Assembly (NCBI RefSeq): GCF_004010195.1
Contig: NC_057758.1
Span: forward strand, 4,904,702 to 4,968,701
DNA from: Chiloscyllium plagiosum
Lineage: Eukaryota
Direction: 5' to 3'
Length of the DNA: 64,000 nt
The position numbers and the translations under genes are program-made. Below, piece after piece: positions 4,177 to 56,018 of the stretch. Position 1 is the first letter of the stretch. Each line of letters opens with the position of its first letter. Below the pieces are notes generated by a model. The model had not been told where the DNA came from. It did not search any database and worked only from the letters and a program-made list of their open reading frames with translations.

Positions 4177-4259
4177 GGATTATGCCTGAGCTGCTGTGCT
4201 ATTCCAGCACCACACTCGAGACTCTAATCTCGACAATTTGCAGTCTTCACTTTCTCCTA
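4177..4259 (+). mobile_element. PLE family 1 terminal-repeat/tail remnant
   Basis: tgcctgagctgctgtgctattccagcaccacactcgagactctaatctcgacaatttgcagtcttcactttctcc matches the terminus at 4810-4891 and 21330-21415. Confidence 0.6.
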
Positions 4260-8280: not shown

Positions 8281-8284
8281 CAGG

Positions 8285-19914: not shown

Positions 19915-20830
19915 AAAACATAGAACACAGAACAATACAGCGCAGAACAGGTCCTTCAGCCCTCGATGTTGTGCAGACCTGTGACCTATTCTCAGCTCAT
20001 CCCCCTGCACTATCCCCAAATCATCCACGTGCTTATCTAAGGATTGTTTAAATCTCCCTAATGTGGCCAAGTTGACTACATTGGCAGGTAAGGAATCCCA
20101 CGCCCTTATCAACCTCTGAGTAAAGAACCTTCCTCTGACATCTGACTTACATCTATCACCCCTCAATTTGTAATTATGCCCGCTCGTACAAGCTGATGTC
20201 TTCATCCTAGGAAAAACACTTTCGCTGTACACCCTACCTAATCCTCTGATCGTATTGTATGTCTCTATAAAATCCCCTCTTTGCCTTCTTCTTTCCAATG
20301 CGAAGAGACCCAAGTCTCTCAGTCTTTCCTCATAAGACATTCCCTCCAGACCAGGCAACATTCTGGTAAATGTCCTCTGAACCTTTTCCAATACTTCCAA
20401 ATTCTTACTGAAATATGGGGACCAGAACTGTGCACAATATTCAAAGTGTGGCCTCACCAGCGTTTTATATAGTTGCAACATGGTATTGCGGCTCCAGAAC
20501 TCAGTCCCTCATCGAATGAAACCTAACACTCCGTATCGCTTCTTCACAGCACAATCACCCTGGGTGGCAACTTTCAGGGATCTATGTACATGGACGCCAA
20601 GATTCCTCTGCACATCCAAGAATCTTTCCATTGACCCAGGACTCTGCCCTCCTGTTTTTTTCCACAATGCATCACCTCACATTTAGCTGCATTGAACTCC
20701 ATTTGCCACCTCTCAGCCCAATCCTGAAACCTGCAAGATCCATTCCCCACCCTGCTCTATCCATGTCTCCGAAATAGCTCCAACAACGAAGTCCCAGGTA
20801 CCTATCCATGCTGCAAACTCAACTACCTTA
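19915..20830 (-). mobile_element. CR1 3' end fused to an endonuclease N-terminal fragment (large internal deletion or junction at ~20720)
   Basis: ORF 19867..20481 LYKTLVRPHFEYCAQFWSP..FFTQRL. RT end jumps at ~20720 to VVEFAAWIGTWDFVVGAISETW, which matches 53995-54100. Confidence 0.8.
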
Positions 20831-21079
20831 TTGCACCTCCGACTGTTAGAATCTTCAAAGGATACATGTGCAAATTTGAAATTGAACACTTTTCTTTCCA
20901 ATGAATGCCTCCCTGTCCCTTCAATTCCTGTGTTTCTCACTTCCCTGCCTCCATTTGTCCAGATGAATAGATAGGATAATTAAACTAACAGTAATGAACT
21001 GCTGGGCGTCTGAACCGAAAGCAGAAATGGCTGGAGAAACTCGCCAGGTCTGACGGAATCTGGGAGGTGGGGGGTAGGG

Positions 21080-21650
21080 TTAATGGTACAGTCTCTCTCT
21101 GCTGAGCACTGACTCCTCACAGCGCCAGGGACTCCGGTTTGATTCCTTCTTCATGCAACTGTCTGTGTGGAATTTGTATGTTGTTCACGTGTTACCTGGG
21201 TTTCATCTGAGTGCTGAAAATGTGTTGCTGGAAAAACGCAGCAGGTCAGGCAGCATCCAGGGAAAAGGAGAATCGACGTTTCGGGCATAAGCCCTTCTTC
21301 AGGAATATGCCCGAAACGTCGATTCTCCTGTTCCCTGGATGCTGCCTGACCTGCTGCGCTTTTCCAGCAACACATTTTCAGCTCTGATCTCCAGCATCTG
21401 CAGACGTCACTTTCTGCTCAAAGATTTCATCTGAGTGCACCGGTTTCATCCTACAGGCGAAAGATGTGCAGGATAGGCGAACTGGCCATTCTTAATTAAC
21501 CCTGTTTTCAGGGAGTGTCGGTAAGGTGCAATAGTCTGGGGTAAGTGCAGAGTGGTAGGGGAATGGGTCTGGGTGAGTTCCTCTTCAGAGTTTCGGTCTG
21601 GGCTAGTGGGCCAAAGGACCTGTTTCGACACTGTACGGATTGTATTCATC
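21080..21650 (+). mobile_element. HE1/V-SINE-type SINE, interrupted by a PLE mini-element (paralogs ~30845-31192 and ~54338-54685 are uninterrupted)
   Basis: gcactgactcctcacagcgccagggactccggtttgattcc head and ccaaaggacctgtttcgacactgta tail. Confidence 0.8.
21215..21424 (+). mobile_element. Young 210-bp non-coding PLE family 1 mini-element (77-bp inverted repeat + tail) with 14-bp TSD and a minus-strand hammerhead core
   Basis: TSD tttcatctgagtgc at 21201-21214 and 21425-21438. Arms 21213-21289 and 21306-21382 have 2 mismatches. The site is empty in the paralogs at ~30965 and ~54461. Confidence 0.9.
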
Positions 21651-22036
21651 ATGTTTCAGGTCCTGTTTCCAACTTCAGTCATTAGTACTGTTATACCCAC
21701 TCCCTTTTCGGGTGGAGGATTCGGCTGACACCGTTTCATCTCTGCTGATTTTGCAAAGAGCCTGTGGCATTCCCCGACAGAGTCATGCCTCAATTGGGAA
21801 GGCTGCTACCTCGAAGTGGATTGCGAAGAAGAGAAAACATCCGGGAAACAGCACACCAGGTTCGAAAATACGATACATATTTGATGGGGGCGGGGTGGGG
21901 TCAGATTGACATTTTGGACACACTGCCTGCATTCACCGATGTAGTTATTCATTGTATCCACGTTTGACTGTCCACAGAGTTGAGACTAAGGCATTTTCGT
22001 ACTGTTCTAATTTAGCTCTGCAAACGTAATGGCTGT

Positions 22037-24989
22037 AAAAGAATAACAAAGAACAATGAACAAAATAAGAAAAGATAAACTGCACAGGAACAGGCACTTT
22101 GGCCCTCCAAGCCCACGCTGATCCAGAGCCTCTATCTAATCCTGTCACCTATTTTGTAATTATCTGTATCCCTTCGCGCCATGCCCACTCATGTATCTGT
22201 CGAGATACATCTTAAATGACGCTTTCATGCCTGCTTCCACCATATCCACTGGCAAAGTGTTCAAGGCACACATCACACCCTGCGTAAAGAATTTCCCTTA
22301 ATATCTCCCTTCAACCTTTCCCACCTCACCTTGATCTGGTGATCCTTAGTACCGAGTTCCCCAGTCAGTGAAAAAAAAAACTTCCTTCTATTCACCAAGT
22401 GTGTACCTCTCATGATTTTGCTTATCTCAATCAATTCCGCCTCAACTTTTGTCTTTCTAATGAAAATATTTCCAACCTACTCAATCTCTCTTCACAGCTT
22501 GCGCCCTTCATATCAGGCCATATACTGGTGAACCTCCTCTGCAAACTCGCCAAACTATCCACATCATTTTGATAATGTGGCGACCAGAACCGAACTAGAA
22601 ATGGATCAAATGTGACGGAACTAAACAACTGCAACATGACCTGTCAACTCTTGTACACAATGCCCTGACCGATGAAGGAAAGCATGTCATCTGTCTTCTT
22701 GACCACTCTATCGAACTGCTTTGCCACATTCAGGGTACAATGGAAAAGATTACGCAGATCTCTTTGGTAGTCAATTTTCGAAAGGGCATTTCCTTTTACT
22801 GTATTATTCGTTCTTGAATTGGAACTTCCAAAATGTTTCATGATACTTCGCCCGGATTGAATTCCATCTGTCATTTCTCCTCCAAACTCTCCAGTGTGTC
22901 CATATTCTGCTGTATACTCTGACAGCCCCTTTAAAATACCTGCTCCTCTTTCAATCTGAGAGTCATCTTCAAACTTGCTAATCAGAACATTTCTCACTTC
23001 CTGCAGGTCATTTATGTATGTCACAATCAATGTGGTCACAACACGCATTCCTGTGGAACACCAATTTTCACATCAACTCCATTCCCTTCTACTCGATGTC
23101 TTCTGCTTCACAGTCAGTTTTCTATCCAACTAGCTATTACACCTTGTACCCCATGCGACTTCACTTTCTCCACCAGACTGTCATGAACGCCTTCCAAAAG
23201 ATCATGTTTTGACCACTACAGCCCTTTCCTCATCAATCAACTTTATCAAGTCCACAAGTAATTCTATTCAGTTTGTTCGACATTACTTTCCTTCCACAAA
23301 ACCATGCTGCCGGGTACTGCCCATTTTCTTGCAAATCTAAATAGTTCCTTTGCCTCAGTATGCTCACCAGCATCTTCACTACCGCTGACATCAGGCTCAT
23401 CGGTCTATAATTACCTGGACTATCTCTACTAACCGTCCTAAACAAAGCGACACCAGATCTCTGGGACCTCATCCGTGTTCGAAGACGATGCAGCGATATC
23501 TCTTCAGATCCCAGCTATTGCCTCTCTCACTTCCCTCAGTGTCCTGGTCATGACCCCATCAGAACCTCGGACTTGTTCGCTCTTATGCTTTTCAGACTAC
23601 CCATCAATTCCAACCTATTTATGCCGATTTTATCGAGTGTGACCAAAGATCTACCCCTAACCTCAACATCCGCCATGTCCCTATCTTTGGTGAATACTGA
23701 GGCAAAATAATATTTAACAATCTCATCCATTTTCTCTGGTTCCATGCATAACTTCCCTCCTTTCTCCATGAGTTGCACAACCCTTTCTTGAGTTAGCCTC
23801 TTGCCCCTTTCCTGCGAGAAAAGGGCTTTGAGATTTTCCTTAATCCTGTTTACACAAGACATTTCATGGCGATTTTTAAACTTCTTATATTTTCGTTTCA
23901 GATTGGTCCTACCTTCACGATATTCAACCAAATCTTCATTTGCTCTCAGTCGCCTAGACTTTGGCTCGACGTACTTTTTCCTCTCAGCTAACCTTACAAT
24001 TTCAAAGTTTGTGAGAAGATTTGTAGCTCGGGTGCTCGTTGTTGTGGTTCTGTTCGCCGAGCTGTGAATTTGTGTTGCAGACGTTTCATTCCCTGTCTAG
24101 GTGACATCCTCAGTGCTTCGGAGCCTTCTGTGAAGCGCTTCTGTGATGTTTCCTCCGGCATTTATAGTGACCTTGTTTGTGCAACTTCCGGTTGTCAGTT
24201 CCAGCTGTCCACTGCAGTGGCCGGTATGTTGGGTCCAGGTCGATCCTCCCAAGCACTGAGGATGTCACCTAGACAGGGGACGAAACATCTGCAACACAAA
24301 TTCCCAGCTCGGCGAACAGAACTACAACTTACAATTTCACCTGTCATTCATGGTTCCTTCATCTTTCCGTTTGTATCCCTCATTTTCGCAGGCACATGTG
24401 CGTCGTGCACTCTAATCAAACTCTCTTGAAAAGCCTCCCACTCATCAAATGTGAATTTACACTCAAAAAACTCATCCCAATCCACACCTCCAGATCGTGC
24501 TGAATTTTGCTGTCGTTGTCCTTCCCCCAGTTTAGCTCTTTTCCTTTAATACCACTGTCATCTTTGACCACGACGATTCTAAAAGTTACGGAAGTGTGTT
24601 CACTATTCCCTAAATTATCCCCAGCTGAAATTTGAACAACCTGGCCATGCTCGTTCCTCAACATAATTTCCAGTCTGACCCGATTCCAAGCGGGACCATT
24701 TTCCATACTGCTTTATAAACTCTCCTGGGTGTTTATAACAAATTTTGTTCCATCAAGAACTCTAACACGAGTCATTCCCAGTCAATTTTGGGATAAATAA
24801 AATCTCCCATTTCCCGCACCCTGTTGCTCGTTTATCTTTCCATAATCAGTTTATATATTTATGCCTCTCTCTCACGATCGCGTTGGGAGGCCTCTCGTAC
24901 AACCCCAGCATTTTTAACCACACTTTTCCTCTTTCTGAGCTCTGCCCATATTGCCTCACTGCGCGAGTCCTCCTTGTGCCCTCCTTCAA
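22037..24989 (-). mobile_element. Decayed CR1 LINE (CR1-A, copy 1), interrupted by a PLE
   Basis: ORF fragments FWSPHYQNDV, ISKFEDD, PGNYRPMSLMS, YFASVFTK. 3' tail (gaacaa/gaataa)n at ~22040. Confidence 0.85.
24005..24327. mobile_element. PLE family 2 insertion, collapsed 323-bp version (inverted terminal repeats + 36-nt tail; two hammerhead motifs)
   Basis: TSD cttacaatttca at 23993-24004 and 24328-24339. Hammerhead motifs at 24077-24116 (-) and 24253-24292 (+). Confidence 0.9.
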
Positions 24990-27950
24990 AGAAAAGAACA
25001 AAGACAATTTACAGCCCAGGAACAGGCCCTTCGGCCCGCCAAGCCTGAGCCAATCCAAATGTACAGTCAAAACCTGTTGGTCAATTCCTAAGAATCCGTA
25101 TCCCTCCGTTCCGCACCTACTCATGTATTTGTCCAGATGCATCTTAAATGAATCTACTGTATCTGCCTCTACCACCTCTGCTGGCAACGCATTCAAAACG
25201 CCCATCATCGTCTGTGTGAAGTACTTGCCGCATGTATCGCCCTTAAACTTTCTGCCTCTCACCTTGAAAGAGTGTCCTCTCGTTATTGAATCCTTCAACC
25301 TGGAAAAAGGTCTTTTCTCTACCCACCTTGTCTATAACCTTCGTGATTTTATTAACCTCAATCAGGTGCCCCTTCAAATTCCTTTTTTTCTGATGAAAAT
25401 AAACCTAACCTACTCAACCTTTCTTCATAGCTAGCATCTTCCATACCAGTCAACATCCTCGTAGACGTTCTCTGAACCCTCTCCAAAGCGTGCACATCCT
25501 TTTGGTAATGTGGCGACCAGAACTGTACACAGTATTCTAAATGCGGCTGAACCAATGTCTTGTACAATTTTAACATGACCTGCCAGCTTTTATACTCAAT
25601 ACCCTGTCCAATGAAGGCAAGCATACTATAAGCCGTCGTGACCACTCTAGCCACCTATGCAACAACCTTCAGGGGACAATGGACCTGCACGTCAAGATCT
25701 CTCTGCCCATCAACTTTTCCCAAGGCTCTTCCATTCATTGTATAATTCGCTCCAGAATTAGTCTTCCCTGAATGCATCATCTCATATTTGCCTGGATTGA
25801 AAACCATTTGCCACATTTCTGCCCAACTCTCCAGCCTATCTATATCCTCCTGTATTCTCTGACAGTCCCTTCTGCTTTCTACGACTCCACCAATCTTCGT
25901 GTCATCTGCAAACTTGGTGATCATCCCAATAATGACCTCTTCCAGATCATTTATGTATATTACAAACAACAGTGGCCCCAACACTGACACCTGTGGAACA
26001 CCACTGGTCACCTTTCTTCATTTCGAGAAACTCCCTTCAATTACTACTGTGTATCTCCTGTTGCTCAACCAATTCTTTATCCACCTATCTAGATCACCCT
26101 GACCACCATGTGACTTCACTTTCTCCATTAGTCTACCAGAGGGAACCTTATCAAACGCCTTCCAAATGTCCATGTATATGACATAAACAGCCCTTTCTTC
26201 ATCTATCAACTTGGTCACTTCCTCGACAACTTCTCTACAGTTGGTAAGGCACGATCCCCCCGCACAAAGCCATGTTGCCTATCACTGATAAGTCTATTTC
26301 TTTCTAAATATAAATAGATCCGATCCCTCAGTACCTTCTCCAGCAAAATTACCACCACTGACAACAGGCTCACTGGTCTGTAGTTACCCGGAATATCCCT
26401 AATACCCTTCCTGTGCAGGGGGATAAGATGAGCAGCACTCCAGTCCTCCGGCACCTGACCTGTATTTAATAATTCCACAAAAATATCTGTCAGTGCCCCA
26501 GTTATTTCCTCTTGCCTCCCTCAGCAACCTGGGATAGATCCCATCTGGTCCTGGTGATTTGTCCACCTTAATAACCTCTAGCCTACACAACATGTCTTCC
26601 CTACTTATGTCAACGTGATCCAGAATAATCAAACTTCTATCTCTAATCTCAACATTCATCATGTTCCTCTCCTCAGTGAACACTGATGCAAAATAACCAT
26701 TCAGAATCTCACCCATTCTCTCAGGTTCATCGTACAGCCTTCCATAGTTATTCTTTAGTGGATCAATCCTTTCTCTAGTTCGCCATTTGCTTCTGAAATG
26801 AGAATAAAATGTTTTGGGATTCTCCGTAATTCTGCTCGCTCAAGCCAATTCATGACCACTTTTAGCCCACTTGACTCCTCGTTTAAGACTTGTCCTACTA
26901 TTCCGAAATTCTTCCAAGGCCCGTTCTGTTCTTAGCTGCCTAGACCTTTTGTGTGCTTCTCTTTTCCTCTTGGGTAGTCGTATAATTTCTCATGTCATCC
27001 ACGGTGCACGAATCTTGCCCTTCCTATCCTTTGCTTTCAACGGGACACGCCAGTCCTGCACTACCTTTAACCTCTCTTTGAAAGCCTCCCACATCTCAAG
27101 TAAGAATTTCGCTTCAAAGAGCTGTGTCAAATCCACATTTCCGAGCTCCTACCTAATTTTGATAAACTTGGGCTTGGCCCAGTTTAGTACTCTTCCCTTA
27201 GGACCACTCTCTTTTTATCTACGACTATTCTAAAACGTACAAAATTGTGTTCACTGTTCTCAAAGAAATCCCCCACCGCAACTTCTACCACCTGCTCTGG
27301 CTCGTTCTTCAGTAAAAGGTCCAATATGACCCCTTCCCTCGTCGGACTATTGACATACTGCTCTATCCCTCAACTAAGTCTCATTCATATCCGTAAAATC
27401 ATACTCAAAGGTATTAATTCGAGGTCTAAATTCATCTGCCTTAACTTTTACGCTTCTCGAATTAATACAAATGCATCTCAGACCACATGTGCTCCCTCCT
27501 ACTCCCTCACTTAGTCACGCTGACTTCAATATCTCTTTCCTTACACGCTTTAGTTTCTACCTCCTCACTATCTGCTAACTTCCTTATATAGTTCCCCCCT
27601 GTGTCACATTCGTTTAATGTCTGCGCAACAGCGTTAGCGCGGGGACACTTAAGGACATTAGCTCCAGTCCACCCCAGGTGTCGAACGTCCAATTTCCAAT
27701 AGTCCCAGATTCCTCACAAACGGTGCCAATTTCCGAAAAGTCTGAACCCAACACTATTGCACCATCTCTCAGCCCTTCGTTCATCTTTTCTCTTCTTCCA
27801 TTTCTACTGTCCCCAGCTATATCAGTGCACAGGCCTACCCAGAGCCGACTGGCTGCCGAGGAAAGTCCTTTTTGAGGGAAATATACCTTCCCAGCAGACC
27901 TCAGCTCCGCGCTCTTACTGCTCCCTCTGCTACTGAAAATGGAGGCTGGG
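24990..27950 (-). mobile_element. Decayed CR1 LINE (CR1-B, copy 1)
   Basis: ORFs 25655..26011 (SGVPQVSVLGPLLFVIYINDL..KFADD), 26018..26218 (KAFDKVP), 26215..26478 (GNYRPVSL). Confidence 0.9.
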
Positions 27951-29354
27951 AATAGCGTAATGTGTCACTGACTTCCTGAATCTGCCCACAACTCTCTTCA
28001 CAATCGACACAAGTCAGGATGTTGAGGGAATAATTCCCAATTGCATTGTTGGATGAAAATTCAACAACACTCTGGGAATTCATCATCATAGAAGACAATC
28101 AGCCACCATCGTTGGCTTCACATTCACAAATGTCCTCTACATCAACATATAACGCTAAAGAGCAATAATGTGTGCTCCCCGCAGGATGCACCACAGAAAT
28201 TTTCAAAAGATACTTAGGAAACGTCTTCCAAACTTACAAGCATTTTCTTCGAGAAGGACATCTGTCAATTGACTCCCATGCCACTCACCATGTGACTTGA
28301 CAATCTATTCGCCGTTTCTTCAGTGTGGCTGGATTAATGCTCGGATCACCTCCCTCACGGAATTGTGTATTTACCTACAGCATGTGGACTGGCAACGTTT
28401 CAAGAAGGCAGCTCACCAATATCTTCTTAATGGGAAGATTTAGATGAGCAACAAATTATGCTCTAAGCCATTGACGTCCACATTCCACCAGAGCAGACAC
28501 AAAAAATAGCGAGATGACTTGGGAAAATAGACTCGAAAAGGAAGTTTCAGTTGTATTATATAATTTTGAAGCAGTAAATTCAATCGGGTATTAAACCAAC
28601 AACTTAATGAGGACTCGAATCCCTGGTAAATATTCTAGTGAATAAGATATATTAAAGTTCTTTCTTCAACAGTTGAAGCAGTCGCACAGAAGAAGGGTGT
28701 CTGTATTGCAAACATTAAGCCTGGTTCTGTTAACTGATGCTGCCGGAGGTGTTGTGTTTTCCCAGTACTTTATGTGTTTTTTATCTGATATAAGCAGTTC
28801 TTCCGGTTTGTTTGCGTCTGTTGGTTGGGCTGTGAGAAGGTCATCAATCATGACAGCATAGATTGCTGGAGAAACTCAAGTTTGCAGGTCGGACAATTTA
28901 CGTGGAGAGAAAGGGGAGTCAGAAGTTTGGGTCCAGTGAACCTTCGTCTTAACTCAGGAGACAAACAGTTCCTTGGGCTCACCTTGGACAAGCTCAAGTC
29001 TCAATCGCTGATTCAACGGGAGTTTATTGGTATAAACGGCAGGTTCTTGGGATGACATACGTTTTGGCAAAAGAATGAGGAGCAAGTCAGTGAGCATTCC
29101 AGTTTCTGAAGATGCCGAATGCGTTGGGATGGCGGAGGTGGAAAGGAGGGAAACTGACAAATAAAGCTAAGAATTCCATTTTGCAGCAAATGTCAAGGGG
29201 AAATGATGCAAAATCAGACTTGCTTTTCAGGAGAGAGATTTCTACTATTCAAGTACACATCAGTGTAAGAAGATTTACTGTTTGTGTGAGCCATTACAAT
29301 GTCAAATTCCAAACTTCGATCCATACATTATTTTTATTTACAGCTGGGATGTGA

Positions 29355-30136
29355 TCATCTTTGATTGTGACAACACGTTATTACCCATCTTGACCATTCT
29401 ATCGACTTGCTTTGCCAACTTCAGGGAACTTAAAACGAGATCTCTCTGGATATCAGTTTTCCCCAAAGCCTTTCCATTTACTGTGTGGTTCGCTTTGAAA
29501 TGGCTCTTCCAAAATGTTCCACCCTGCATTGCCCGGATTGAATTCCAACTGCCATTTCTCTGCCCAACACTACAATCTATCTATATTCTGCTGCATTCTC
29601 TTACAGTTAAATTCACTACTTGCTAATCCAGCAATCTTTGTGTCATCTGCAAAATTGCTGATCGGACCACTTATATATTTATGTATATCACAAACAGCAA
29701 TGGCCACAACACGAATCCCTGCGGACCACCACTGATCACAGTTCGCCATTTTGAGTAACTCCCTTCCACTACTAATGTTTGTCTCCTGCTGTCCAGTCAG
29801 TTCTTTATCCATATAACTAGTACACCCAGGAGCCATGCGACGTCACTTTCTCCGCTACCCTACAAAGGGGAAACCGATTAACCAACTCACTGAAGTGCAT
29901 GAATATGCTATCAACATACCTTTCCTCATCAATCAACTTTGTCACTTTGTCAAAGAATTCAATTAAATTGGTATGATATGTATTTCCCTAGACAAAAAGA
30001 GATGCCATTTACTGTTAAGACAATTTTCTTGCAATCCTAAATACATCCTCTGCCACAGTAAATATTCCAGCATTTTCCCCACCCTGACAATACCTTGACC
30101 AGTCTATAATCGCCTTGATTATCCCTGCTACCCTTC
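29355..30136 (-). mobile_element. CR1 RT fragment (CR1-C, copy 1)
   Basis: ISNFADDTKIAG in ORF 29570..29836; paralog of ~39105-39901. Confidence 0.8.
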
Positions 30137-30178
30137 TCAAACAGAGTGGGAGTGAAAAGGATGGCAAAAGACAAAAAC

Positions 30179-30678: not shown

Positions 30679-33277
30679 TGTCCCTTCAATTCCTGTGTTT
30701 CTCACTTCCCTGCCTCCATTTGTCCAGATGAACAGATAGGATAATTAAACTAACAGTAATGAACTGCTGGGCATCTGAACCGAAAGCAGAAATGGTTGGA
30801 GAAATTCGCCAGGTCTGACGGAATCTGGGAAGTGAGGGGCAGACTTAATGGTACAGTCTCTCTCTGCTTAGCACTGACTCCTCACAGCGCCAGGGACTCG
30901 GGTTTGATTCCTTCTTCATGCAACAGTCTGTTGGAATTTGTATGTTCTTCACGTGTTATCTGGGTTTCATCTGAGTGCTCCGGTTTCATCCCACAGTCGA
31001 AGGATGTGCAGGATAGGCGAACTGGGCATTGTAAATTAACCACTGTTTTCAGAGAGGTGTTGGTAAGGTGCATTAGTCTCGGGTAAGTGCAGAGTGGTAG
31101 GGGAATGGGTCTGGGTGAGTTACTCTTCAGAGTTTCGGTCAGGGCTAGTGGGCCAAAGGACCTGTTTCGACACTGTAGGGATTGTATTCTTCATGTTTCA
31201 GGTCCTGTTTCCCAACTTCAAAAATTAGTACTGTTATACGCTCTCCCGTTTCGGGTAGAGGATTCGGCTGACACCGTTTCATCTCTGCTGATTTTGCAAG
31301 AGCCTGTGGCACTCCCTGACAGAGTCATGCCTCAATTAGGAAGGCTGCTACCTCTAAGTGGACTGCGAAGGAGAGAAAACATCCGGGAAACAGCACACTA
31401 GGTTCAAAAGAACGATACATATTTGAGGGGGGGGGGGGGATGGTTGTGGTGGGGTGGGTCAGCTTGACATTTGTCTTAAATAACACTATCATGCCTGCTT
31501 CCACCATATCCAATGGCAAAGTGTTCGAGGCACCCATCACACTCTGCGGAAAGAATTTTCCATAATATCTCCCTTCAACCTTTCCCACCTCACCTTGATC
31601 TGGTGATCCTTAGTACCGAGTTCCGCAGTCAGTGACAAAAAACTTCCTTCTATTCACCACGTGTGTACCTCTCATGATTTTATTTATCTCAATCAATTCT
31701 CCCTCAACTTTTGTCTTCCTAATGAAAATATTTCCAACCTACTCAATCTCTCTTCACAGCTTGCGCCCTTCATATCAGGCAATATCCTGGTGAACCTCCT
31801 CTGCACACTCGCTAAACTATCCACATCATTTTGATAATGTGGCGACTAGAACCGAACTAGAAATGGATCAAATGTGACGGAACTAAACAACTGCAACATG
31901 ACCTGTCAACCCTTGTACACAATACCCTGACCGATGAAGGAAAGCATGTCATCTGTCTTCTTGACCACTCTATCGAACTGCTTTGCCACATTCAGGGTAC
32001 AAAGGAAAATATCACGCAGATCATTTTGGTAATCAATTTTCTAAAAGCCATTTCCATTTACCCGTATTATTCTTTCTTGAATTGGAACTTCTAAACTGTT
32101 TCATGATACTTCGCCCGGATTGAACTCCATCTGTCATTTCTCCTCCAAACTCTCCAGTGTGTCCATATTCTGCTGTATACTCTGACAGTCTCTTTCAATA
32201 CCTGCTCCTCCATCAATCTGAGAGTCAGCTTCAAACTTGCTAATCAGAACACTTCTCCCTTCCTGCAGGTTATTTATGTATGTCACAATCAATGTGGTCA
32301 CAACACGCATTCCTGTGGAACACCACTTTTCACAGCAACTCGCTTCCCTGCTACTCGATGTCTTCTGCTTCACAGCCGGTTGTCTATCCATTTTGCTAGT
32401 ATACCCTGTACCCATGCGACTTCACTTTCTCCACCAGACTATCATTGGAAAACAGATCAAACGTCTTCCAAAAGTTTATGTTTTTGACCATTACAGCCCT
32501 TTCCTCATCAATCAACTTTATCAATTCCACAAGTAATTCTATTAAGTTTGTTAGACATTATTTTCCTCCACAAAACAATGCTGCCGCTTGCTGCCCATTT
32601 TCTTGCAGATCTAAAAAGTTCCTTTGCCTCAGTATGCTCCCCAACAGCTTCACCACCGCTGACGTCAGGCTCATCGGTCTGTAATTACCTGCACTCTCTC
32701 TACTAACCTTCTTAAACAAAGAGTCACCAGTCCTCTGGGACTTCATCCGTGTTCGTTGACGTTGCAGTGATATCTCTTAAGATCCCAGTTATTGCCTCTC
32801 TCACTTTCCTCAGTGTCCTGGGCATGACCCCATCAGAACCTCGGACTTGTTCGCTCTTATGCTTTTCAGACTACCCACCAATTCCACCCTATTTATGCCG
32901 TCTTTATCGAGTGTGACCAAACATCTAGCCCGAACCTCAACATCCGTCTTGTCCCTCTCTTTGGTGAATACTGAGGCAAATACCAGTTAACAATCTCACC
33001 CATTTTCTCTAGTTCCATGCATAACTTCCCTCCTTTCTCCATGAGTTGCACAACCCTTTCTAGAATTAACCTCTTGCCCCTTTCCTGCGAGCAAAGGGCT
33101 TTGAGATTGTCCTTAATCCTGTTTACACAAGACATTTCATGGCGTTTTTCAAACTTCTTACATCTTCGTTTCTGATTGGTCCTACTTTCACGATATTCAC
33201 CCAAAGCTTCATTTGCTCTCAGTCACCTAGAATTTGGCCCTACGTACTTTTTCCTCTCAGCCAATCTTACAATTTCA

Positions 33278-34431
33278 AAGTTTGTGAGAAGATTTGTAGC
33301 TTGGGTGCTCGTTGTTGTGGTTCTGTTCGCCGAGCTGGGAATTTGTGTTGCAGACGTTTCGTCCCCTGTCTAGGTGACATCCTCAATGCTTGGGAGCCTC
33401 CTGTCAAGCGCTTCTGTGATGTTTCCTCCTGCATTTATAATGATTCGTTTCTGCAACTTCCGATTGTCAGTTCCAGCTGTCCACTGCAGTGGCCAGTATA
33501 TTGGGTCCAGGTCGATGTGCTTATTGATTGAATCTGTGGATGAGTGCCATGCCTCTAGGAATTCCCTGGCTGTGCTCTGTTTGGCTTGTTTGACTTCACA
33601 TTCACATTCAATAACCAAATATATGAACAAATCCACGCACACCCATGGGCTCACCCATCTCTGGACTCATAGCAGAAGCGGTAATGCATAGGTCAGAACA
33701 AACAGTCTGACCATAAAGTCAACCCAAACTCTGGGTCAGATATGTAGATGATACCTTTCTAATCGTTAAAAACACAGAAATAGAGAAAACACACCGGATC
33801 ATCAACGCCACACTCACAGGAATCCGATTCACTAGAGAGGAAGAAAAGGGCAACCAACTCCCATTACTAGACGTGATTATACAGAGACCACCGAATGGAG
33901 AATTCACCACTAAGGTATACAGGAAAGCCACACACACAGACCAAGTCCTAAACTACGAAAGCATCCACCCCAACACACACAAAAGAAGTTGCATCAAGAC
34001 ACTGTTCAAAATGGCCACAACACACCGCAGTACACCAGAACTGCAAAAAGAGGAAGAAGAACACCTATAGAATGCATTCGTCAAAAACGGAAAGCCCTGA
34101 CATTTCATCAACAGATGCCAAAGGGAAAGACAACAGAGTGAGGACATGCCACAACCCAAAGGACTAGCCACACTACCATGCATAAAAAACATTTCTGAAC
34201 TGACCACAGATTCAATCAATAAACACATCGATCTGGACCCAATATACCGGCCACTGCAGCGGACAGCTAGAACTGACAACCGGAAGCGGCAGATACAAAT
34301 TGCTTTTAATGCCGGAGGAAACATCACAGAAGCGCTTCACAGGAGGCTCCCAAGCACTGAGGATGTCGTCACCTAGACAGGGGACGAAACGTCTGCAACA
34401 CAAATTCCCAGCTCGGCGAACAGAACCACGA
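33278..34431 (+). mobile_element. PLE family 2 insertion, 1154-bp version (inverted 3' segment + RT C-terminal half + terminal repeat)
   Basis: TSD cttacaatttca at 33266-33277 and 34432-34443. KLWVRYVDDTF at ~33726-33760 and VYRKATHTDQVLNYESIHP. The GIY-YIG N-terminal half is deleted at ~34205. Confidence 0.9.
34354..34396 (+). ncRNA. Minimal type I hammerhead ribozyme motif (best-preserved catalytic core in the window)
   Basis: GCA-CTGAGGA-T-GTCGTCACCT-AGAC-AGGGGAC-GAAAC-GTC-TGC. Stem I is GCA/TGC, stem II closes G-C, stem III is the palindrome ACGT, and the cleavage triplet is GUC. Confidence 0.7.
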
Positions 34432-35093
34432 CTTACAATTTCACCTGCCATCCATGGTTCCTTAATCTTTCCGTTTGTATTCCTCATTTTCGCAGGCACA
34501 TGTGCGTCCTGTTCTCTAATCAAACTCTCTTGAAAAGCCTCGCACACATCAAATGTGAATTTACACTCAAAAAGCTCATCCCTATCCATACCCCCAGATC
34601 GTGCTGAATTCTGCTGTCGTTGTCCTTCCCCCAGTTTAGCTCTTTTCCTTTAATACCATTGTCGTCTTTGACCACGAGGATTCTAAAAGTTACGGAAGTG
34701 CGATCACTATTCCCTACATAATCCCCAGCTGAAATTTGAACAACCTGGCCAGGTTCGTTTCTCAACATAATTTCCAGTCTAACCCGATTCCAAGCGGGAC
34801 TATTTACATACTGCTTTATAAAACTCACCTGGATGTTTCTAACAAGTTTTGTTCCATCAAGACCTCTAACACGAGTCATTCCCAGTCAATGTTGGGATAA
34901 TTAAAATCTCCCATTTCCAACACCTTGTTGCTCGTTTAACTTTCCATAATCAGTTTATATATTTATGCCTCTCTCTCACGATCGCGTTCGAAGGCCTCCA
35001 GTACAACCCCAGCATTTTTTAACCACACTCTTCCCATTTCTGTGCTCTGCCCATATTGCCTCACTGCACGTGTCCTCCATGTGCCCTCCTTCA

Positions 35094-37690
35094 AAGAAAA
35101 GAACAAAGACAATTTACAGCCCAGGAACAGGCCCTTCGGCCCGCCAAGCCTGAGCTGATCCAAATGTACTGTCGAAACCTGTTGGTCAATTCCTAAAAAT
35201 CCGTATCCCTCTGTTCCCCACCTACTCATGTATTTGTCCAGATGCATCTTAAATGAATCTACTGTGTCTGCCTCTACCACCTCTGCTGGCAACGCATTCA
35301 AAACGCCCATCACCCTCTGTGTGAAGTACTTGCCGCTTGTATCCCCATTAAACTTTCTACCTCTCACCTTGAAAGAGTGTCCTCTCGTTATTGAATCATT
35401 CACCCTGGGAAAAGACTTTTCTCTATCTTCCTTGTCGATAATCTTCATGATTTTATTAACCTCAATCAGGCCCCCCCCTCAATTCCTGTTACTTTTCTCT
35501 ATCTTCCTTGTCTATAATCTTCATGATTTTATTAACCTCAATCAGGCCCCCCCTCAAATTCCTTTTTTCTGATGAAAATAAAACTAACCTACTCAACCTT
35601 TCTTCATAGCTAGCATCTTCCATACCAGTCAACATCCTCGTAAACATTCTCTGCACCCTCTTCAAAGCGTGCACATCCTTTTGGTAATGTGGTGACCAGA
35701 ACTGTACACAGTATACTAAATGTGGCTGAACCAATGTCTTGTACAATTTTAACATGACTTGCCAGCTCTTATACTCAATACCCTGTCCCACGAAGGCAAG
35801 CATACTATATGCCGTCTTGACCACTCGAGCCACCTGTGCAGCAACCTTCAGGGTACAATGGACCTGCACTACAAGATCTCTCTGGCCATCAACTTTTCCT
35901 AAGGCTCTTCCGTTCATTGTATAATTCGCTATAGAATTAGTCTTACCTCATATTTGTCTGGATTGAAAACCATTTTCCACATTTCCGTCCAACTTTCCAG
36001 CCTATCGATATCCTCCTGTATTCTCTGACAGTGCCTTATGCTTTCTACGACTCCACCAATCTTCGTGTCATCTGCAAACTTGCTGATCGTACCAATAATG
36101 ACCTCTTACAGATCATTTATGTATATTACAAAGAACAGTGGCCCCAACACTGACACCTGTGGAACACCACTGGTCACCTTTCTCCATTTCGAGAAACTCC
36201 CTTCAATTACTACTGTGTATCTCCTGTTGCTCAACCAATTCTTTATCCACCTAGCTAGAACACCCTGACCACCATGTGACTTCACTTTCTCCATTAGTCT
36301 ACCATGGGGAACCTTATCAAACGCCTTACAAATGTCCATGTATATGACATAAACAGCCCTTCCTTCATATATCAACTTGGTCACTTCCTCAAAGAATTCT
36401 CTACAGTTGGTAAGGCATGATCCCCCCGCACAAAACCATGTTGCCTATCACTGATAAGCACATTTTATTTTCTAAAGATAAATAGATCCGATCCCTCAGT
36501 ACCTTCTCCAGCAAATTTGCCACCATTTACAACAGGCTCACTGGTCTGTAGTTCTCCGGAATATCCCTAATACCCTTCCTGTGCAGGGGGACAACATAAG
36601 AAGCACTCCAGACCTCCGGCACCTGATCTGTATTTAATGATTCCTCAAAAATATCTGTCAGGGCCCCAGCTATTTCCTCTTGCCTCCCTCAGCAACCTGG
36701 GATAGATCCCATCTGGTCCTGGTGATTTGTCCACCTTTATAACCTCTAGCCGACACAACACGTCTTCCCTACTTATGTCAATTTGATCCAGACTAATCAA
36801 ACTTCTATCTCTAATATCAACATTCATCATGTTCCTCTCCTCAGTGAACACTGATGCAAAATAACCATTCAGAATCTCATCCATTCTCTCAGGTTCAACG
36901 TACAGCCTTCCATCGTTATCATTTACTGACGAATCCTTTCTCTAGTTAGCCAATTGCTTCTTATATGAGAATAAAATGTTTTGGGATTCTCCTTAAGTCT
37001 GCTCGCTCAAGCCAATTCATGACCCCTTGTAGCCCACTTGACTCGTCGGTTAAGACTTGTCCTACTATTCCGAAATTCTTCCAAGGCCCGTTCTGTTCTT
37101 AGCTGCTGAGACCTTATGTGTGCTTCTCTTTTCCTCTTGGGTAGTCGTACAATTTATCATGTCATCCACGGTTCACGAATCTTGCCCTTCCTATCCTTTA
37201 CTTTCAACGGGACAAGCCAGTCCTGCACTACCTTTATCCTCTCTTTGAAAGCCTCGCACATCTCAAGTGCGGATTTTCCTTCAAAGAGCTGTGTCAAATC
37301 CACATTTCCGAGCTCCTACCTAATTTTGATATACTTGGGCTTGGCCCAGTTTAGTACTCTTCCCTTAGGACTACACTCTTTTTATGAGGGGACACTCAAG
37401 GACTTTAGCTCCAGTACACCCCAGGTGTAGAACGCCCAATTTACAATAGTCCCAGGTTCGCCACAAACGGTGCCAATTTCCCAAAAATCTGAACCCAACA
37501 CTATTGCCCTATCTCTCAGCCCTTCGTTCATCTTTTCTGTTCTTTCATTTCCACTGTGCCCAACTATATCAGTGCACTGGCCTACCCAGAGACGACTGGC
37601 TGCCGAGGAAAGTCCTTTTTGAGGGAAATGTACCTTCCCAACAGACCACAGCTCCTCGCTCTCACTGCTCCTTCTGCTACTGAAAATGGA
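35094..37690 (-). mobile_element. Decayed CR1-B, copy 2
   Basis: ORFs 35489..35917 and 36106..36384 (KAFDKVPHGRL, SGVPQ). Confidence 0.9.
35415..35563 (+). repeat. 76-bp direct tandem duplication, specific to copy 2
   Basis: acttttctctatcttccttgtc..aatcaggccccccctcaa at 35415 and 35491; single copy in the paralogs at ~25312 and ~60940. Confidence 0.9.
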
Positions 37691-39104
37691 GGCTTTGAAT
37701 CGCGTAATGAGTCACTGAGTTCCTGAATCTACCCAAAACCCTCTTCACAATCGACACAAGTCAGGATGATAAGGGAATAATTCCCAACTGCATTGCTGGA
37801 TAAAAATTCAACAACACTCTGGGAATTCATCATCATAGAAGACAAACAGCCAACATCATTGGCATCACATTCACAAATATCCGCTACATCAACTTATAAC
37901 GCTAAAGAGCAATAATGTGTGCTCCCCGCAGGATGCACTACAGAAATTTTCAAAAGATACTTAGGCAACACCATCCAAACGAACAAGCATTTTCTTCGAG
38001 AAGGACATCTGTCAGTTGACTCCGATGCCACTCACCATCGTGACTTGACAATCTATTCGCCGTTTCTTCAGTGTGGCTGGATGAATGCTCGGATCACCTC
38101 CCTCACGGAATTGTGTATTTACCTACAGCATGTGGACTGGCAACGTTTCAAGAAGGCAGCTCACCAATATCTTCTTAATGGGCAGATTTAGATGAGCAAC
38201 AAATTATGCTCTCAGCCATTGACGTCTACATTCCACCAGAGCAGACATAAAAAATAGCGAGATGACTTGGAAAACAGACGCGAAAAGGAAGTTTCAGTTG
38301 TATTATATAATTTTGAAGCAGTGAATTCAATCGGGTATTAAACCAACAACATAATGATGACTCAGATCCCTGGTAAGTATTGTAGTGAATAAGAGACATT
38401 AAAGTTCTTTCTTCAACAGTGGAAGCAGTGGCACAGAAGAAGGGTCTCTGTATTGCAAACATTAAGCCTGATTCTGTTAACTGATGCTGCCGGAGGTGTT
38501 GTGTTTTCCCAGTACTTTATGTGTTTTTTATCTGATATATGCAGTTCTTCCGGTTTGTTTGCGTCTGTTGATTGGGCTGTGAGAAGGTCATCAATCATGA
38601 CAGCATAGATTGCTGGAGAAACTCAAGTTTGCAGTTCGGACAACTTATGTGGAGAGAAAGCGGAGTCAGAAGTTTGGGTCCAGTGAACCTTCATCTGAAC
38701 TCAGGAGACAAACAGTTCCTTGGACTCACCGATCAATGACAAGCTCAAGTGTCAATCGCAGATTCAACGGGAGTTTATTGGTATAAACGGCAGGTGTTTG
38801 GGATGACATACGTTTTAGCAAAAGAATGAGGAGTAAGTCAGTGAGCATTCCAGTTTCTGAAGATGCCGAATGCGTTGGGGTGGCGGAGTTGAAACGGAGG
38901 GAAAATGACAAATAAAGCCAAGAATTCCATTTTGCAGCAAAAGTCAAAGGGAAATGATGCAAAATCAGACTTGCTTTTCAGGAGAGAGATTTCGACTATT
39001 CAAGTACACATCATTGAAAGAAGATTTACTATTTGTGTGAGTGATTACAATGTCAAATTCCAAACTTCGATCCATACATTATTTTTATTTACAGCTGGGA
39101 TATG

Positions 39105-41990
39105 ATCATCTTTGATTGTGACAACACGTTATTACCCTTCTTGACCATTCTATCGACTTTCTTTGCCAACTTCAGGGTACAATGGAACTTAAAAACGAGA
39201 TCTCTCTGGATATCAGTTTTCCCCAAAGCCTTTCCATTTACTGTGTGGTTCGCTTTAAAATGGCTCTTCCAAAATGTTCCACCCTGCATTGCCCGGATTG
39301 AATTCCAACTGCCATTTCTCTGCCCAACACTACAATCTATCTATATTCTGCTGCATTCTCTGACATTTAAATTCACTATCTGCTAAACCAGCAATCTTTG
39401 TGTCATCTGTAAAATTGTTGATCAGACCACTTATATATTTATGTATATCACAAATAGCAATGGCCACAACACGAATCCCTGCGGCCCACCGCTGTTCACA
39501 GTTCGCCATTTTGAGTAACTCCCTTCCACTACTAATGTTTGTCTCCTGCGGTCCAGTCAGTTCTTTATCCATATAACTAGTACACCCAGGAGCCATGCGA
39601 CTTCACTTTCTCCGCTACCCGACCAAGGGGAATCCGATTAAACAACTCACTGAAATGCATGAATATGCTATCTACATATCTTTCCTCATCAATCAACTGT
39701 TTCACTTCGTCAAAGAATTCAAGTAAATTAATATGACATGAATTTCACTAGACAAAAAGAGATGCCGTTTACTGTTAAGCCAATTTTCTTGAAATCCTAA
39801 ATACATCCTCTGCCTCAGTAAATATTCCAGCATTTTCCCTGACAATAACTTGACCAGTCTATAATCGTCTTGATTATCCCTGCTATCCTTCTGAAACAGA
39901 GGGACGCCATCGTAATCCTCCGAAACTCCCGGACCTCATACATGTTTAAGGATGCTGGAAAGATATCTGTTAAGGTCCCAGCTATTTCCTATCTCGCTTC
40001 TCTCAGTAACCTGGGATCGAACCAATCAGGATCTGAGGACTTAGACACCTTAATGCCTTTTGCAAAAGCCAAAACTTCATTCCCACTAATGCCGATTGAT
40101 CTTGAGTAAACAAACATCTATCTTTAATCTCAACATCCGTAATACCCCTCTCCTTCGCGAATACCGATGCAAAGCATTCATAAAGATTCAGATTCTTCCT
40201 ATAACTGAGTGGGCGTAAAATTTGTTGTGTTACTCTCTTATTCCTCTCATACAAATAAAAAGCTTTGGAATTTTCCTTGATGCTGTTTTCTCAAGCTATT
40301 TCACGACCCTCTTTAGACCTCTTGACTCACCATTTCTGATTTGCCCTACTTTGCCGATATTATTCCAAAGCATCGCCTGTTTTCAGTCATCTAGACCTTA
40401 TGTTTGATTTCTTTATCCTCTTAGCTCGTCTCACAATTTCACCTGTTTCCGCCATTTGTTTTAGATTTCTAGTCCTAAATTTCACAGGTTCACGTATGTC
40501 CTGCACTCTACTCAATCTCTCTTTAAACATCAAATGTGGATTTACCCTGAAGCAGCTGCTCCCAATCCACATTCGCCAGCTCCTGCCGAGTTTTGCTGCA
40601 GTTGACCTTCCCCCAAAGTACCAGTCTTCCAATAGGACCACTCTCTTCTTTGTCCATGGTTCTTCTGGCCGCTACGGAATTGTGAGGAGTATTCTCAAAA
40701 TAATCCCCTTCTGAAGGTTCAATCAGTGGCCGGGCTCATTCCACAACACCAATTCCAGTAAGGCCCCATCCCGAGTTGTACTGTTTCCATATTGTTGTAT
40801 AAACTCTCCGAGATGATCCTTACAAATTTTGCTTCATCTAGACCTCTGACACGAAATGACTCTCAGTCAATATTAGGAAAATTAAAATCTCTCAATACCA
40901 CCACACTGTTGCTCCTACATCTTTCCATAATTTGTTTGTATATTTGCACCTCAATCTCACACACTCTGTTGGGACGCCTGTCATACAGTCCCACCATTGT
41001 TACCTCACACTTCGTATTTTTAAACTCTGTCCATATAGCCTGACTGCTCCAGTCCTACAAATGACGTCCTTCAGCATGGCTGTGATGTCCTCTCTGACTA
41101 GTAATGGAAGTCCGCCACTCATTTCAACTTCTTCTCTCTCCTGAATAAATCATCAATATCCTGGGATATCGAGATGCCATTCTTGCTCATCCCTCAACCA
41201 AGTATTACTAATAGCAATAGCATCATACTCCCAGGTACTAATCCAATCTCGAAATTCGTCTGCCTTGCACTTGCATTAAAACAAATGCCCACTTCAGGCC
41301 ACCAGTCCCTTTGCGTTCGTCATGTGCTCCAATTCTCCGCAGGCTTCATCCACCCAAATGGTCAGGTTGACTTTATTATCTCGTTCCTTACAGGTTTTAG
41401 TTAGTACTTATTTACTGTCCATTAATCTGATCATTCGGTTCCAATCCACCTGCCACATTAATTTAAACAAACCAAAACAGCATAAGCAAAAGCACCCAAA
41501 GGTCACTGGTTCCAGTCCTGGTGGCTGTCGCCCGTTCAAGTTGTAATAGGAGAAAGTGTGGTCTGCAGATGCTGGAGATCAGAGCTGAAGAAGGGCTTAT
41601 GCCCGAAACGTCGATTCTCCTGTTCCCTGGATGCTGCCTGACCTGCTGCGCTTTTCCAGCAACACATTTTCAGCCAAGTTGTAATAGCCCCACCTCCTTC
41701 AGAACCAGTCAAAATGTTCCAAAGGTCTGCTCCGTTCCCTCCTGCACCATTTGATCAGAGACTCATTCATCCTGCCTACACTTTAGTTTCTACTCTAACT
41801 GATATACTACCTGAACCATACTTTGTACTGAGTTATTCCATCGCTCCCGCTCAGTTCTTCGCACACAACGTCCCTGCTACTGCAAAATGGATGCCACTAA
41901 CTCTTCAGGTCAATCCTTTCAGAGGGAAATTTACCTTCCCAGCGGCCCCGATCGTCGCTCCCACTGCTCCCACTGTTGCTGAACATGGCG
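39105..41990 (-). mobile_element. Old CR1 LINE (CR1-C, copy 2), RT to 5' end
   Basis: NNFTDDTKIAG, CFASVFAKE, endonuclease remnants at ~40850-41290. Its 5' end resembles that of CR1-B (37620-37690). Confidence 0.8.
41550..41674. mobile_element. Young 125-bp non-coding PLE family 1 mini-element with 13-bp TSD and intact hammerhead core
   Basis: TSD caagttgtaatag at 41537-41549 and 41675-41687. The tail is on the minus strand (41550-~41585), joined to plus-strand CTGAAGA-A-GGGC-TTAT-GCCC-GAAAC-GTC (41585-41612). Confidence 0.9.
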
Positions 41991-44084: not shown

Positions 44085-44223
44085 CCAAGACACCAACAGC
44101 AGCAAGGAATGGATAGTAAGCGTGCTGAAACAGCAGAAGAATATACCGTATTCGATAGTAGACTGTCATCCAATGCTGATTTCGAATATAATAGGCGATT
44201 TGTGCAGGGAATCTTTTATTCAT
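44085..44223 (-). CDS. Exon 1 (N-terminus and start of TM1) of a GPR139-like class A GPCR
   Basis: ATG at 44223; MNKRFPAQIAYYIRNQHWMTVYYRIRYILLLFQHAYYPFLAAVGVL, then donor G|gtaagt at 44085/44084. The exon is 139 nt (phase 1), matching the phase of the acceptor at 18589 and giving AAVGVLVNVLAVSILSR. Confidence 0.85.
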
Positions 44224-55632: not shown

Positions 55633-56018
55633 NNNNNNNNNNNNNNNNNNNNNNNNNNNNNNNNNNNNNNNNNNNNNNNNNNNNNNNNNNNNNNNNNNNN
55701 NNNNNNNNNNNNNNNNNNNNNNNNNNNNNNNNNNNNNNNNNNNNNNNNNNNNNNNNNNNNNNNNNNNNNNNNNNNNNNNNNNNNNNNNNNNNNNNNNNNN
55801 NNNNNNNNNNNNNNNNNNNNNNNNNNNNNNNNNNNNNNNNNNNNNNNNNNNNNNNNNNNNNNNNNNNNNNNNNNNNNNNNNNNNNNNNNNNNNNNNNNNN
55901 NNNNNNNNNNNNNNNNNNNNNNNNNNNNNNNNNNNNNNNNNNNNNNNNNNNNNNNNNNNNNNNNNNNNNNNNNNNNNNNNNNNNNNNNNNNNNNNNNNNN
56001 NNNNNNNNNNNNNNNNNN
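55633..56018. other. Assembly gap (386 N)
   Basis: N run. Confidence 1.

What the first reader, a model, noticed from the sequence alone, without database searches (positions are those of the whole stretch)
34354..34396. Intact minimal type I hammerhead motif in a PLE terminal repeat (six related copies in the window)
Seen: GCA CUGAGGA U [stem II] GAAAC GUC UGC, with all core nucleotides, an extra U after A9, a 3-bp stem I and a loop-less palindromic ACGU stem III. Homologs: 24253-24292 (+, GUC>AUC), 59884-59923 (+, stem II closes G-U), 24077-24116 (-), 33350-33389 (-) and 58564-58603 (-). The last two carry C3>U. Family 1 has a different stem II sequence but the same core and the same extra base, which is cross-family structural conservation. 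Each insertion places one motif on each strand, so the GPCR pre-mRNA (minus strand) would carry only the damaged versions.
Basis: partly seen in the sequence, partly recalled or inferred. Interest (0 to 1): 0.7.

Follow-up and report, generated by a model that had tools for sequence, protein, structure and literature searches.

The report
Dead Penelope copy's minimal hammerhead
This is a real but ordinary example of the tiny, likely self-cutting RNA motif that Penelope-type jumping genes carry at their ends; the six copies come from one old insertion duplicated twice, every one of them is mutated, and in this family the motif also holds the element's stop codon and likely its start codon.

Summary
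The 43-base motif and its five homologs are at the stated coordinates. They are minimal type I hammerheads in the terminal repeat of a Poseidon-type Penelope-like element (PLE), a kind described in 2014 with the extra base, the loop-less palindrome and opposite-strand pairs (PMC4209133). Corrections: (1) the six copies are one fold-back insertion, triplicated with its CR1 flanks and 11-bp target-site duplication; (2) the 'intact' copy is a private mutant: its 3-nt duplication occurs once in the genome against 3,415 copies without it, and it is predicted to misfold; (3) family 1's extra base is A, not U; (4) the GPCR intron holds only two of the insertions, plus a core-intact family 1 motif on the transcribed strand. 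Covariation is real, but between genomic subfamilies (stem I pair 3, stem II pair 3). In this family A9-U-G10.1 is an ATG in frame with the PLE ORF, and the ORF's stop lies in stem-loop II (38 of 56 copies), so cleavage would remove the start codon. Cleavage is untested. The scan noted this kind before (99 findings, at least 17 genomes), the start/stop overlap included.

The parts
34354..34396 (+). Focal minimal type I hammerhead: 3-bp stem I, core, extra U, stem II with a private 3-nt duplication, loop-less ACGU, predicted cut after 34390
34363..34365 (+). A9-U-G10.1 = ATG; in longer family members this ATG is in frame with the PLE ORF (likely start codon)
34374..34376 (+). TAG that ends the RT-endonuclease reading frame, at the top of stem II / loop II
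33278..34432 (.). Insertion B: inverted 3' arm (33278-33589, minus) joined to a broken RT-EN remnant and pLTR (33597-34432, plus)
33267..33277 (+). Left 11-bp target-site duplication of B, inside a CR1-type LINE fragment
34433..34443 (+). Right 11-bp target-site duplication of B
33350..33389 (-). Hammerhead of B's inverted arm, C3>U
24005..24328 (.). Insertion A: same insertion, middle missing; target-site duplication 23994-24004 and 24329-24339
24077..24116 (-). Hammerhead of A's inverted arm: core intact, 3' strand of stem II changed at two bases
24253..24292 (+). Hammerhead of A's forward arm: G16.2>A breaks the palindrome
58492..59959 (.). Insertion C: same insertion, longest RT-GIY-YIG remnant; target-site duplication 58481-58491 and 59960-59970 (one mismatch)
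58564..58603 (-). Hammerhead of C's inverted arm, C3>U
59884..59923 (+). Hammerhead of C's forward arm: C11.1>U and one further stem II change
20724..30146 (.). Segmental duplicate 1 (approximate ends), carries insertion A
   Evidence: self-BLAST, 91-95% to the other units
30679..39901 (.). Segmental duplicate 2 (approximate ends), carries insertion B
53991..64000 (.). Segmental duplicate 3 (runs to the window end), carries insertion C
21272..21305 (-). Family 1 (likely Neptune-type PLE) minimal hammerhead, extra base A, core intact, on the GPCR sense strand
41582..41615 (+). Family 1 minimal hammerhead core, 5' side of stem I cut off
44085..44223 (-). Likely coding exon 1 of the GPCR gene, GT donor at 44084
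   Evidence: phase-compatible with exon 2; joining inferred
17687..18589 (-). GPCR exon 2 (7tm_1), with a frameshift near 18.2 kb

Best explanation
The motif is a decaying genomic copy of the minimal type I hammerhead that sits at the ORF-to-ORF junction (pseudo-LTR) of an abundant, likely Poseidon-type Penelope-like retrotransposon; in the active parent element it likely cuts slowly, as a dimer and likely with help from the element's protein, while the window's copies are likely dead. Shown: one 5'-truncated fold-back insertion (inverted arm plus forward arm, each ending in the element's 3' 'tail', hence one motif per strand) landed in a CR1 fragment with an 11-bp target-site duplication and now exists in three 9-10 kb segmental duplicates; all six motifs carry lesions. 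Shown for the family: the RT-EN frame runs through the pLTR and stops at a TAG in stem-loop II; 8 nt earlier, A9-U-G10.1 form an ATG in frame with the next ORF; the predicted cut lies 28 nt after that A; copies end at about +68 or +107. Inferred: two transcripts (or two units of a tandem transcript) pair through the palindromic ACGU to build stem III; cleavage after C17 would separate units and take the start codon off the downstream ORF, and would not be needed for insertion, as in the anole element PAc. The arms of a fold-back copy are antisense to each other, so a read-through RNA would form a long hairpin rather than a hammerhead dimer.
For: Coordinates and lesions. Shared flanks, 91-93.5% identical, and shared target-site duplication. 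RT and GIY-YIG-like remnants in frame with the motif. 3,415 exact genomic copies of the common form, 0 control; 25,780 ATG-type cores against 31 control. Pairing across 20 distinct genomic sequences: 90% of cells paired, 16 cells changed on both sides, 0 of 500 shuffles as high, slid controls 32-43%. Stop at +14 in 38 of 56 copies. ATG opens the same N-terminal peptide in 4 of 4 loci with a motif upstream of the ORF, of 30 examined; 177 codons open in L114. 3' ends: 30 of 97 at +65 to +70 and 43 of 97 at +104 to +110. Inverted partner in 18 of 30 loci. Literature: PMC4209133, PMC8557442, PMC11167929.
Against: No cleavage was measured. No Rfam hammerhead model hits the six copies. Neither single-sequence folding nor RNAalifold predicts the hammerhead fold as the ground state, z-scores -1.4 to +0.6. 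Stem I is only 3 bp, shorter than the 4-5 bp reported for schistosome min-HHRs, and this subfamily has an A-G mismatch in stem II. Only 3 of 10 pairs change on both sides (145 of 500 shuffles reach that), and the sequences are related, so few independent events. The Pfam GIY-YIG hit (E 0.0088, 16.8 bits) is below the curated cut-off of 22.6. Only 2 of the 4 upstream-motif loci stay in frame all the way to the ORF anchor, both with internal stops.
Confidence: 0.85

Rival explanations
1. The motif is a catalytically dead relic in this lineage, kept only because it encodes the last codons of the ORF, the start codon and the first codons of the next ORF.
For: The core is doubly coding in this family; motif length is kept in frame across subfamilies; the hammerhead fold is not the predicted ground state; PAc inserts without cleavage.
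Against: Compensatory changes at stem I pair 3 (G-C 8, C-G 6, U-A 3) and stem II pair 3 (C-G 9, U-A 3, U-G 7) are not explained by coding. The same core with a different stem II is kept in family 1. The PAc hammerhead cleaves with C3/G8 dependence.
Confidence: 0.09
2. The copies are under host selection: the GPCR pre-mRNA has purged or co-opted the ribozymes on its sense strand.
For: Two of three minus-strand copies carry C3>U and the third has a damaged stem II; A and B lie in the likely intron 18590-44084.
Against: All three plus-strand copies are damaged too; C3>U is shared by B and C, the closest pair of arms (96.6%), so likely one event, and C is outside the gene; a core-intact family 1 motif is on the sense strand in the intron; exon 2 is frameshifted; in 25 copies chosen by their tail the core is not better kept than its surroundings (8 of 254 against 21 of 1,598 non-CpG changes).
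Confidence: 0.03
3. These are units of a non-autonomous retrozyme or SINE-like ribozyme element that replicates through circular RNA.
For: Very high copy number and many short copies; retrozymes are reported from one chondrichthyan genome and derive from pLTRs.
Against: Motifs are attached to RT-EN remnants of varying length. Among the first 100 listed exact hits, all 14 pairs within 3 kb are on opposite strands and none is head-to-tail.
Confidence: 0.03

Closest known systems
Minimal hammerheads (min-HHR) of metazoan PLE pLTRs, including fish Xena, Poseidon and Neptune (Cervera and De la Pena 2014, PMC4209133; parts 1-2 of 4 of the text read, one supplement file searched, the other not searchable)
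   Same: Type I topology, full core, extra nucleotide between 9 and 10.1, G10.1-C11.1, long helix II, palindromic 15.2-16.2 without loop 3, many families per genome, dual motifs 100-700 bp apart on opposite strands.
   Different: Helix I is 3 bp here against 4-5 bp in their schistosome families; no shark entry in the supplement file searched; about 169,000 core matches here against 4,000-9,000 motifs in coelacanth and Xenopus, though my pattern does not require stems, so the counts are not comparable.
Poseidon element PAc of Anolis carolinensis (Frangieh et al. 2024, PMC11167929; passages and the second part of the main text read; 3 supplement files searched, no sequence found)
   Same: ORF starts at the start of stem II with C3 and G8 upstream; cut 26 nt after the start codon (28 here); two preferred 3' ends bounding a 30-40 nt AC-rich tail inside the ORF; ATT-containing target.
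   Different: PAc's ribozyme was shown to be protein-assisted and dispensable for insertion in vitro; nothing was assayed here. Whether PAc's stop codon also lies in the motif could not be checked.
Complex tandem/inverted insertions of EN+ PLEs (Craig et al. 2021, PMC8557442; passages read)
   Same: 5'-truncated copy with an adjacent inverted copy and a tail at one end.
   Different: Here a clear 11-bp target-site duplication, and later triplication in a host segmental duplication.
Extra nucleotide between A9 and G10.1 in the CChMVd (+) hammerhead (De la Pena and Flores 2001, seen only through passages of the review PMC3705267)
   Same: Extra A tolerated, extra U raises trans-cleavage 3-4-fold, C and G are harmful; in this genome only about 2,745 of 169,131 core matches have C or G after A9 (control 1,189).
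   Different: Viroid type III ribozyme with stable stems; here the U doubles as part of an ATG.

Membership tests
Metazoan PLE min-HHR | Conserved core CUGANGA / GAAA / UH | tested here: met
   Focal copy; 2 of 6 window copies have C3>U
Metazoan PLE min-HHR | One unpaired nucleotide between A9 and G10.1 | tested here: met
   U in the family; in the focal copy the 3-nt duplication allows one or four unpaired bases
Metazoan PLE min-HHR | G10.1-C11.1 closing pair | tested here: met
   Focal copy G-C; G-C 10, G-U 8, other 2 of 20 distinct genomic sequences; the U variants fit CpG decay (inference)
Metazoan PLE min-HHR | Palindromic 15.2-16.2 with no loop 3 | tested here: met
   ACGU in 5 of 6 window copies
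Metazoan PLE min-HHR | Long helix II (7-8 bp) | tested here: met
   7 positions, 87.9% of cells paired; position 4 is an A-G or G-G mismatch in this group of subfamilies
Metazoan PLE min-HHR | Short helix I (4-5 bp in the schistosome families) | tested here: inconclusive
   3 bp, 95% paired, pair 3 covaries; a distal extension was not supported; the paper's descriptor minimum is in a figure I could not see
Metazoan PLE min-HHR | Located in the pLTR of a PLE | tested here: met
   Follows the EN C-terminus and precedes the next ORF start
Metazoan PLE min-HHR | Self-cleavage as a dimer | not testable with these tools
   Needs in vitro assay
Rfam hammerhead families (clan CL00010) | Match to a covariance model | tested here: not met
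   No hammerhead match at any of the six copies down to E 10
Penelope/Poseidon PLE | Single ORF with RT then C-terminal GIY-YIG, no extra Zn-finger linker | tested here: met
   Translations show RT motifs running into the endonuclease without a Cys-rich linker (motif names recalled); Pfam GIY-YIG only E 0.0088, below cut-off
Penelope/Poseidon PLE | Placement in the clade by RT phylogeny | not tested
   No reference PLE proteins were fetched
Penelope/Poseidon PLE | 5' truncation, inverted arm, 30-40 nt tail at one end | tested here: met
   Minus arms end at +107, plus arms at +64 to +67 by ungapped extension
Non-LTR retrozyme | Head-to-tail repeats with at least two consecutive hammerhead units | tested here: not met
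   Window arms are inverted; 14 of 14 close pairs among 100 listed genome hits are on opposite strands; no genome-wide tandem search was run

The most novel reading that the evidence does not exclude
In Poseidon-type PLEs the 'extra nucleotide' of the hammerhead is the middle letter of the start codon and the stop codon sits in stem-loop II, making the ribozyme a protein-triggered off-switch: ribosomes finishing or starting an ORF melt the core, and once the element's protein binds the adjacent tail and chaperones the fold, cleavage removes the start codon and takes that RNA out of translation. That would give the unexplained PLE hammerhead a job in feedback control rather than in transposition.
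Probability: 0.2. Interest if true: 0.55.

Novelty: new member of a known kind. Interest (0 to 1): 0.17.

Why it matters
As found, it matters little: it is the expected end structure of a common retrotransposon, in dead copies. The family has some use as material. Several subfamilies with compensatory pairs and tens of thousands of copies give natural variants for testing what PLE hammerheads do, an open question (PMC8557442 passages call their function unclear), and the start/stop overlap gives a specific, testable hypothesis.

Tried and rejected
Rfam scan: no hammerhead hit on the six copies; its best hit (MIR821, 24066-24303) is just the fold-back of insertion A. Extended helix I from complementary-looking distal segments: not predicted by RNAalifold or single folds; rejected as unsupported. 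Dimer energies: the hammerhead dimer is never the cofold minimum; nearest-neighbour energies omit the core's non-canonical contacts and the focal copy's stem II was hand-set there, so only the constrained folds are used. First decay tally was inflated by 5'-truncated copies; redone after dropping 5 of 30 loci whose breakpoint lies in the motif; two of the 8 'non-CpG' core changes are G12>A at a CpG, mis-binned by a tie in a four-member group. Expression: no RNA holder listed for the window stretch. One search was laid on the middle of the ORF, not the motif, and tests nothing about it. (one raw poly(A) single-cell run of a coded organism, about 2% read, plus three contig sets) shows level depth across the predicted cut (185 against 190) and no piled ends, but depth collapses beyond the tail, so the reads come mostly from truncated copies, and such libraries do not report 5'-OH ends: no verdict. 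Pfam found nothing informative for the ORF N-terminus. Lunse et al. 2016 (dimer cleavage of PLE hammerheads) is not held; seen only as cited in passages of PMC6765202. PAc sequence not in the supplements held. Searches for a paper stating the start/stop overlap or covering shark PLE ribozymes listed none that does so by title or abstract apart from the start-codon statement in PMC11167929; subscription papers and Repbase entries are not covered. L092, a chance match, was left out of alignments A1 and A2; A2 also leaves out the window copies.

Full report
Observation. The five homologs are at the stated places with the stated changes. A core pattern finds 8 window matches against 1.41 expected, and none of 100 shuffles reaches 8. 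In the genome the core pattern has 169,131 matches against 2,148 for the reversed control; of the 100 listed, 9 are of the focal type and the rest resemble family 1. The ATG-type core alone has 25,780 against 31. The motif is real. Rfam has no hammerhead match on it.

The six copies are one event. Self-comparison shows three 9-10 kb units at 91-95% identity. Each holds the PLE piece at the same site of the same CR1-type fragment, between the same 11-bp duplication; another CR1 copy in the window reads through that site. Flanks are 91.2-93.5% identical between units and the inverted arms 93.3-96.6%, B and C being closest, which fits their shared C3>U as one mutation (inference). Each insertion is a fold-back: an inverted 3' arm on the minus strand and a 5'-truncated RT-EN remnant ending in the pLTR on the plus strand. 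This is the family norm: 18 of 30 loci chosen by their tail have an inverted partner, and all 14 close pairs among the first 100 exact hits are on opposite strands. Craig et al. describe the same layout and tail for EN+ PLEs (passages). Minus arms end at +107 from the motif's A9 and plus arms at +64 to +67; across 97 family copies in my loci 30 end at +65 to +70 and 43 at +104 to +110.

The focal copy is not the intact form. It carries an extra GTC at the start of stem II. That exact 43-mer occurs once in the genome; the form without it occurs 3,415 times. The duplication lets the core pair with itself: the best hammerhead-compatible fold is 8.7 kcal/mol above the minimum, against 2.6 for the common form and 1.4-3.0 for four other subfamily examples. 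All six window copies differ from the common form inside the motif. In 25 of 30 tail-selected copies (5 dropped for breakpoints inside the motif) the core has 8 changes in 254 non-CpG cells against 21 in 1,598 elsewhere, and 8 of 25 have lost the palindromic CG; 12 of the 30 had a fully intact core. Inserted copies decay without visible protection of the core.

Covariation. It cannot come from the window copies, but it exists between subfamilies. On 29 genomic copies (20 distinct), 90% of cells pair, 16 cells change on both sides and the covariation score is 0.316, each above all 500 shuffles; slid controls pair 32-43%. Stem I pair 3 is G-C, C-G or U-A; stem II pair 3 is C-G, U-A or U-G. Against this: only 3 of 10 pairs change on both sides (145 of 500 shuffles reach that), the sequences fall in a handful of related subfamilies, they were selected for an intact core, and stem II pair 4 is unpaired in 8 of 20. 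Free folding does not return the hammerhead, as expected for a motif with no stem III.

Coding overlap. The reading frame that holds the endonuclease C-terminus continues through the pLTR and stops at a TAG at the top of stem II in 38 of 56 copies; the focal copy stops at the same TAG shifted by 3, and the other 17 have premature stops, frameshifts or a changed TAG. Eight bases before that TAG, A9, the extra U and G10.1 spell ATG. Of 30 loci fetched by the ORF's 5' part, 4 have a motif upstream of the ORF, and in all 4 this ATG opens the same N-terminal peptide; 2 remain in frame to the ORF anchor 567 and 582 nt on, with internal stops, and 2 shift frame late; L114 is open for 177 codons. Other subfamilies give a homologous peptide from the same ATG. 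The predicted cut is 28 nt after the A. [quoted passage not shown] That the ATG is used is inferred.

Family 1. Its extra base is A. One of 30 loci (L037) shows a broken GIY-YIG frame upstream with a Cys-containing linker remnant, which fits the Neptune type as described in PMC8557442; this is a lead from one locus. The shared core with a different stem II is real and is what Cervera and De la Pena report for every genome they examined. U or A at that position, and rarely C or G (2,745 matches, control 1,189), agrees with the viroid data quoted in PMC3705267, but may equally reflect two founder families.

The GPCR. Exon 2 (7tm_1) starts after an AG at 18589 and is frameshifted near 18.2 kb. 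A phase-compatible exon 1 ends at 44085 before a GT; their joining is inferred. The intron would hold insertions A and B but not C. On its sense strand lie 24077-24116 (core intact, stem II damaged), 33350-33389 (C3>U) and a family 1 motif with intact core at 21272-21305. With all plus-strand copies damaged as well, there is no strand-specific purge to explain.

Mechanism. Shown: anatomy, copy number, triplication, decay, coding overlap. From the literature: such motifs do not cleave as monomers and cleave weakly as dimers or trimers; PAc's is protein-assisted. Inferred: in the parent element two units pair through ACGU, cleavage after C17 separates units and removes the downstream start codon, and insertion uses uncut RNA, since most copies keep sequence on both sides of the site. 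The window copies likely do nothing.

Comparison and novelty. It works like, and on every sequence feature tested but helix I length belongs with, the min-HHRs of metazoan PLEs; activity is untested. It is a new member of a known kind. The scan has 99 findings on this theme in at least 17 genomes, and notes on the start/stop overlap in this same genome; these are unchecked AI notes, and my start-codon reading was recorded before the first look-up and the stop-codon tally made before the second. The host is likely a cartilaginous fish; this rests on recalled resemblance and those notes, not on a test here. Interest 0.17.

Noticed in passing
window 20724-30146, 30679-39901, 53991-64000: A 9-10 kb unit made of nested CR1 fragments and the PLE insertion is present three times at 91-95% identity; two copies lie in the likely GPCR intron and one upstream of exon 1.
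   Followed up: partly
window 17687-18589 (-) and 44085-44223 (-): Two-exon rhodopsin-family GPCR with a 25.5 kb intron and a frameshift near 18.2 kb: pseudogene or assembly error. Another similar first exon lies on the plus strand near L032:9865.
   Followed up: partly
window 21210-21385: Family 1 fold-back stub (80-bp arms, 96% complementary) present in segmental unit 1; the self-comparison shows the matching sites in the other units lack it, so it likely inserted after duplication.
   Followed up: no
window 4700-4894 and 41548-41674: Two more family 1 stubs; the one at 4766-4799 is decayed.
   Followed up: no
G000 genome-wide: About 169,000 exact hammerhead-core matches, roughly one per 21 kb, mostly family 1; far above published counts for other vertebrates, though from a looser pattern.
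   Followed up: partly
window 24244-24246: Insertion A lacks the whole middle of B and C, so its two arms abut; likely a deletion between the inverted arms after insertion.
   Followed up: no
L064, L066, L071: One subfamily variant has TCG in place of the TAG in stem-loop II, so its ORF would run on past the motif; the stop position is not universal.
   Followed up: no
L067:1570-1590 (-), L074 same region: An AT-rich, TATA-like stretch lies about 45-55 nt upstream of the motif in two other subfamilies but is not obvious in the focal subfamily.
   Followed up: no
window 7888-8081 (-): A 71%-identical match to the endonuclease region of the family 1 locus L037: an older PLE fragment.
   Followed up: no
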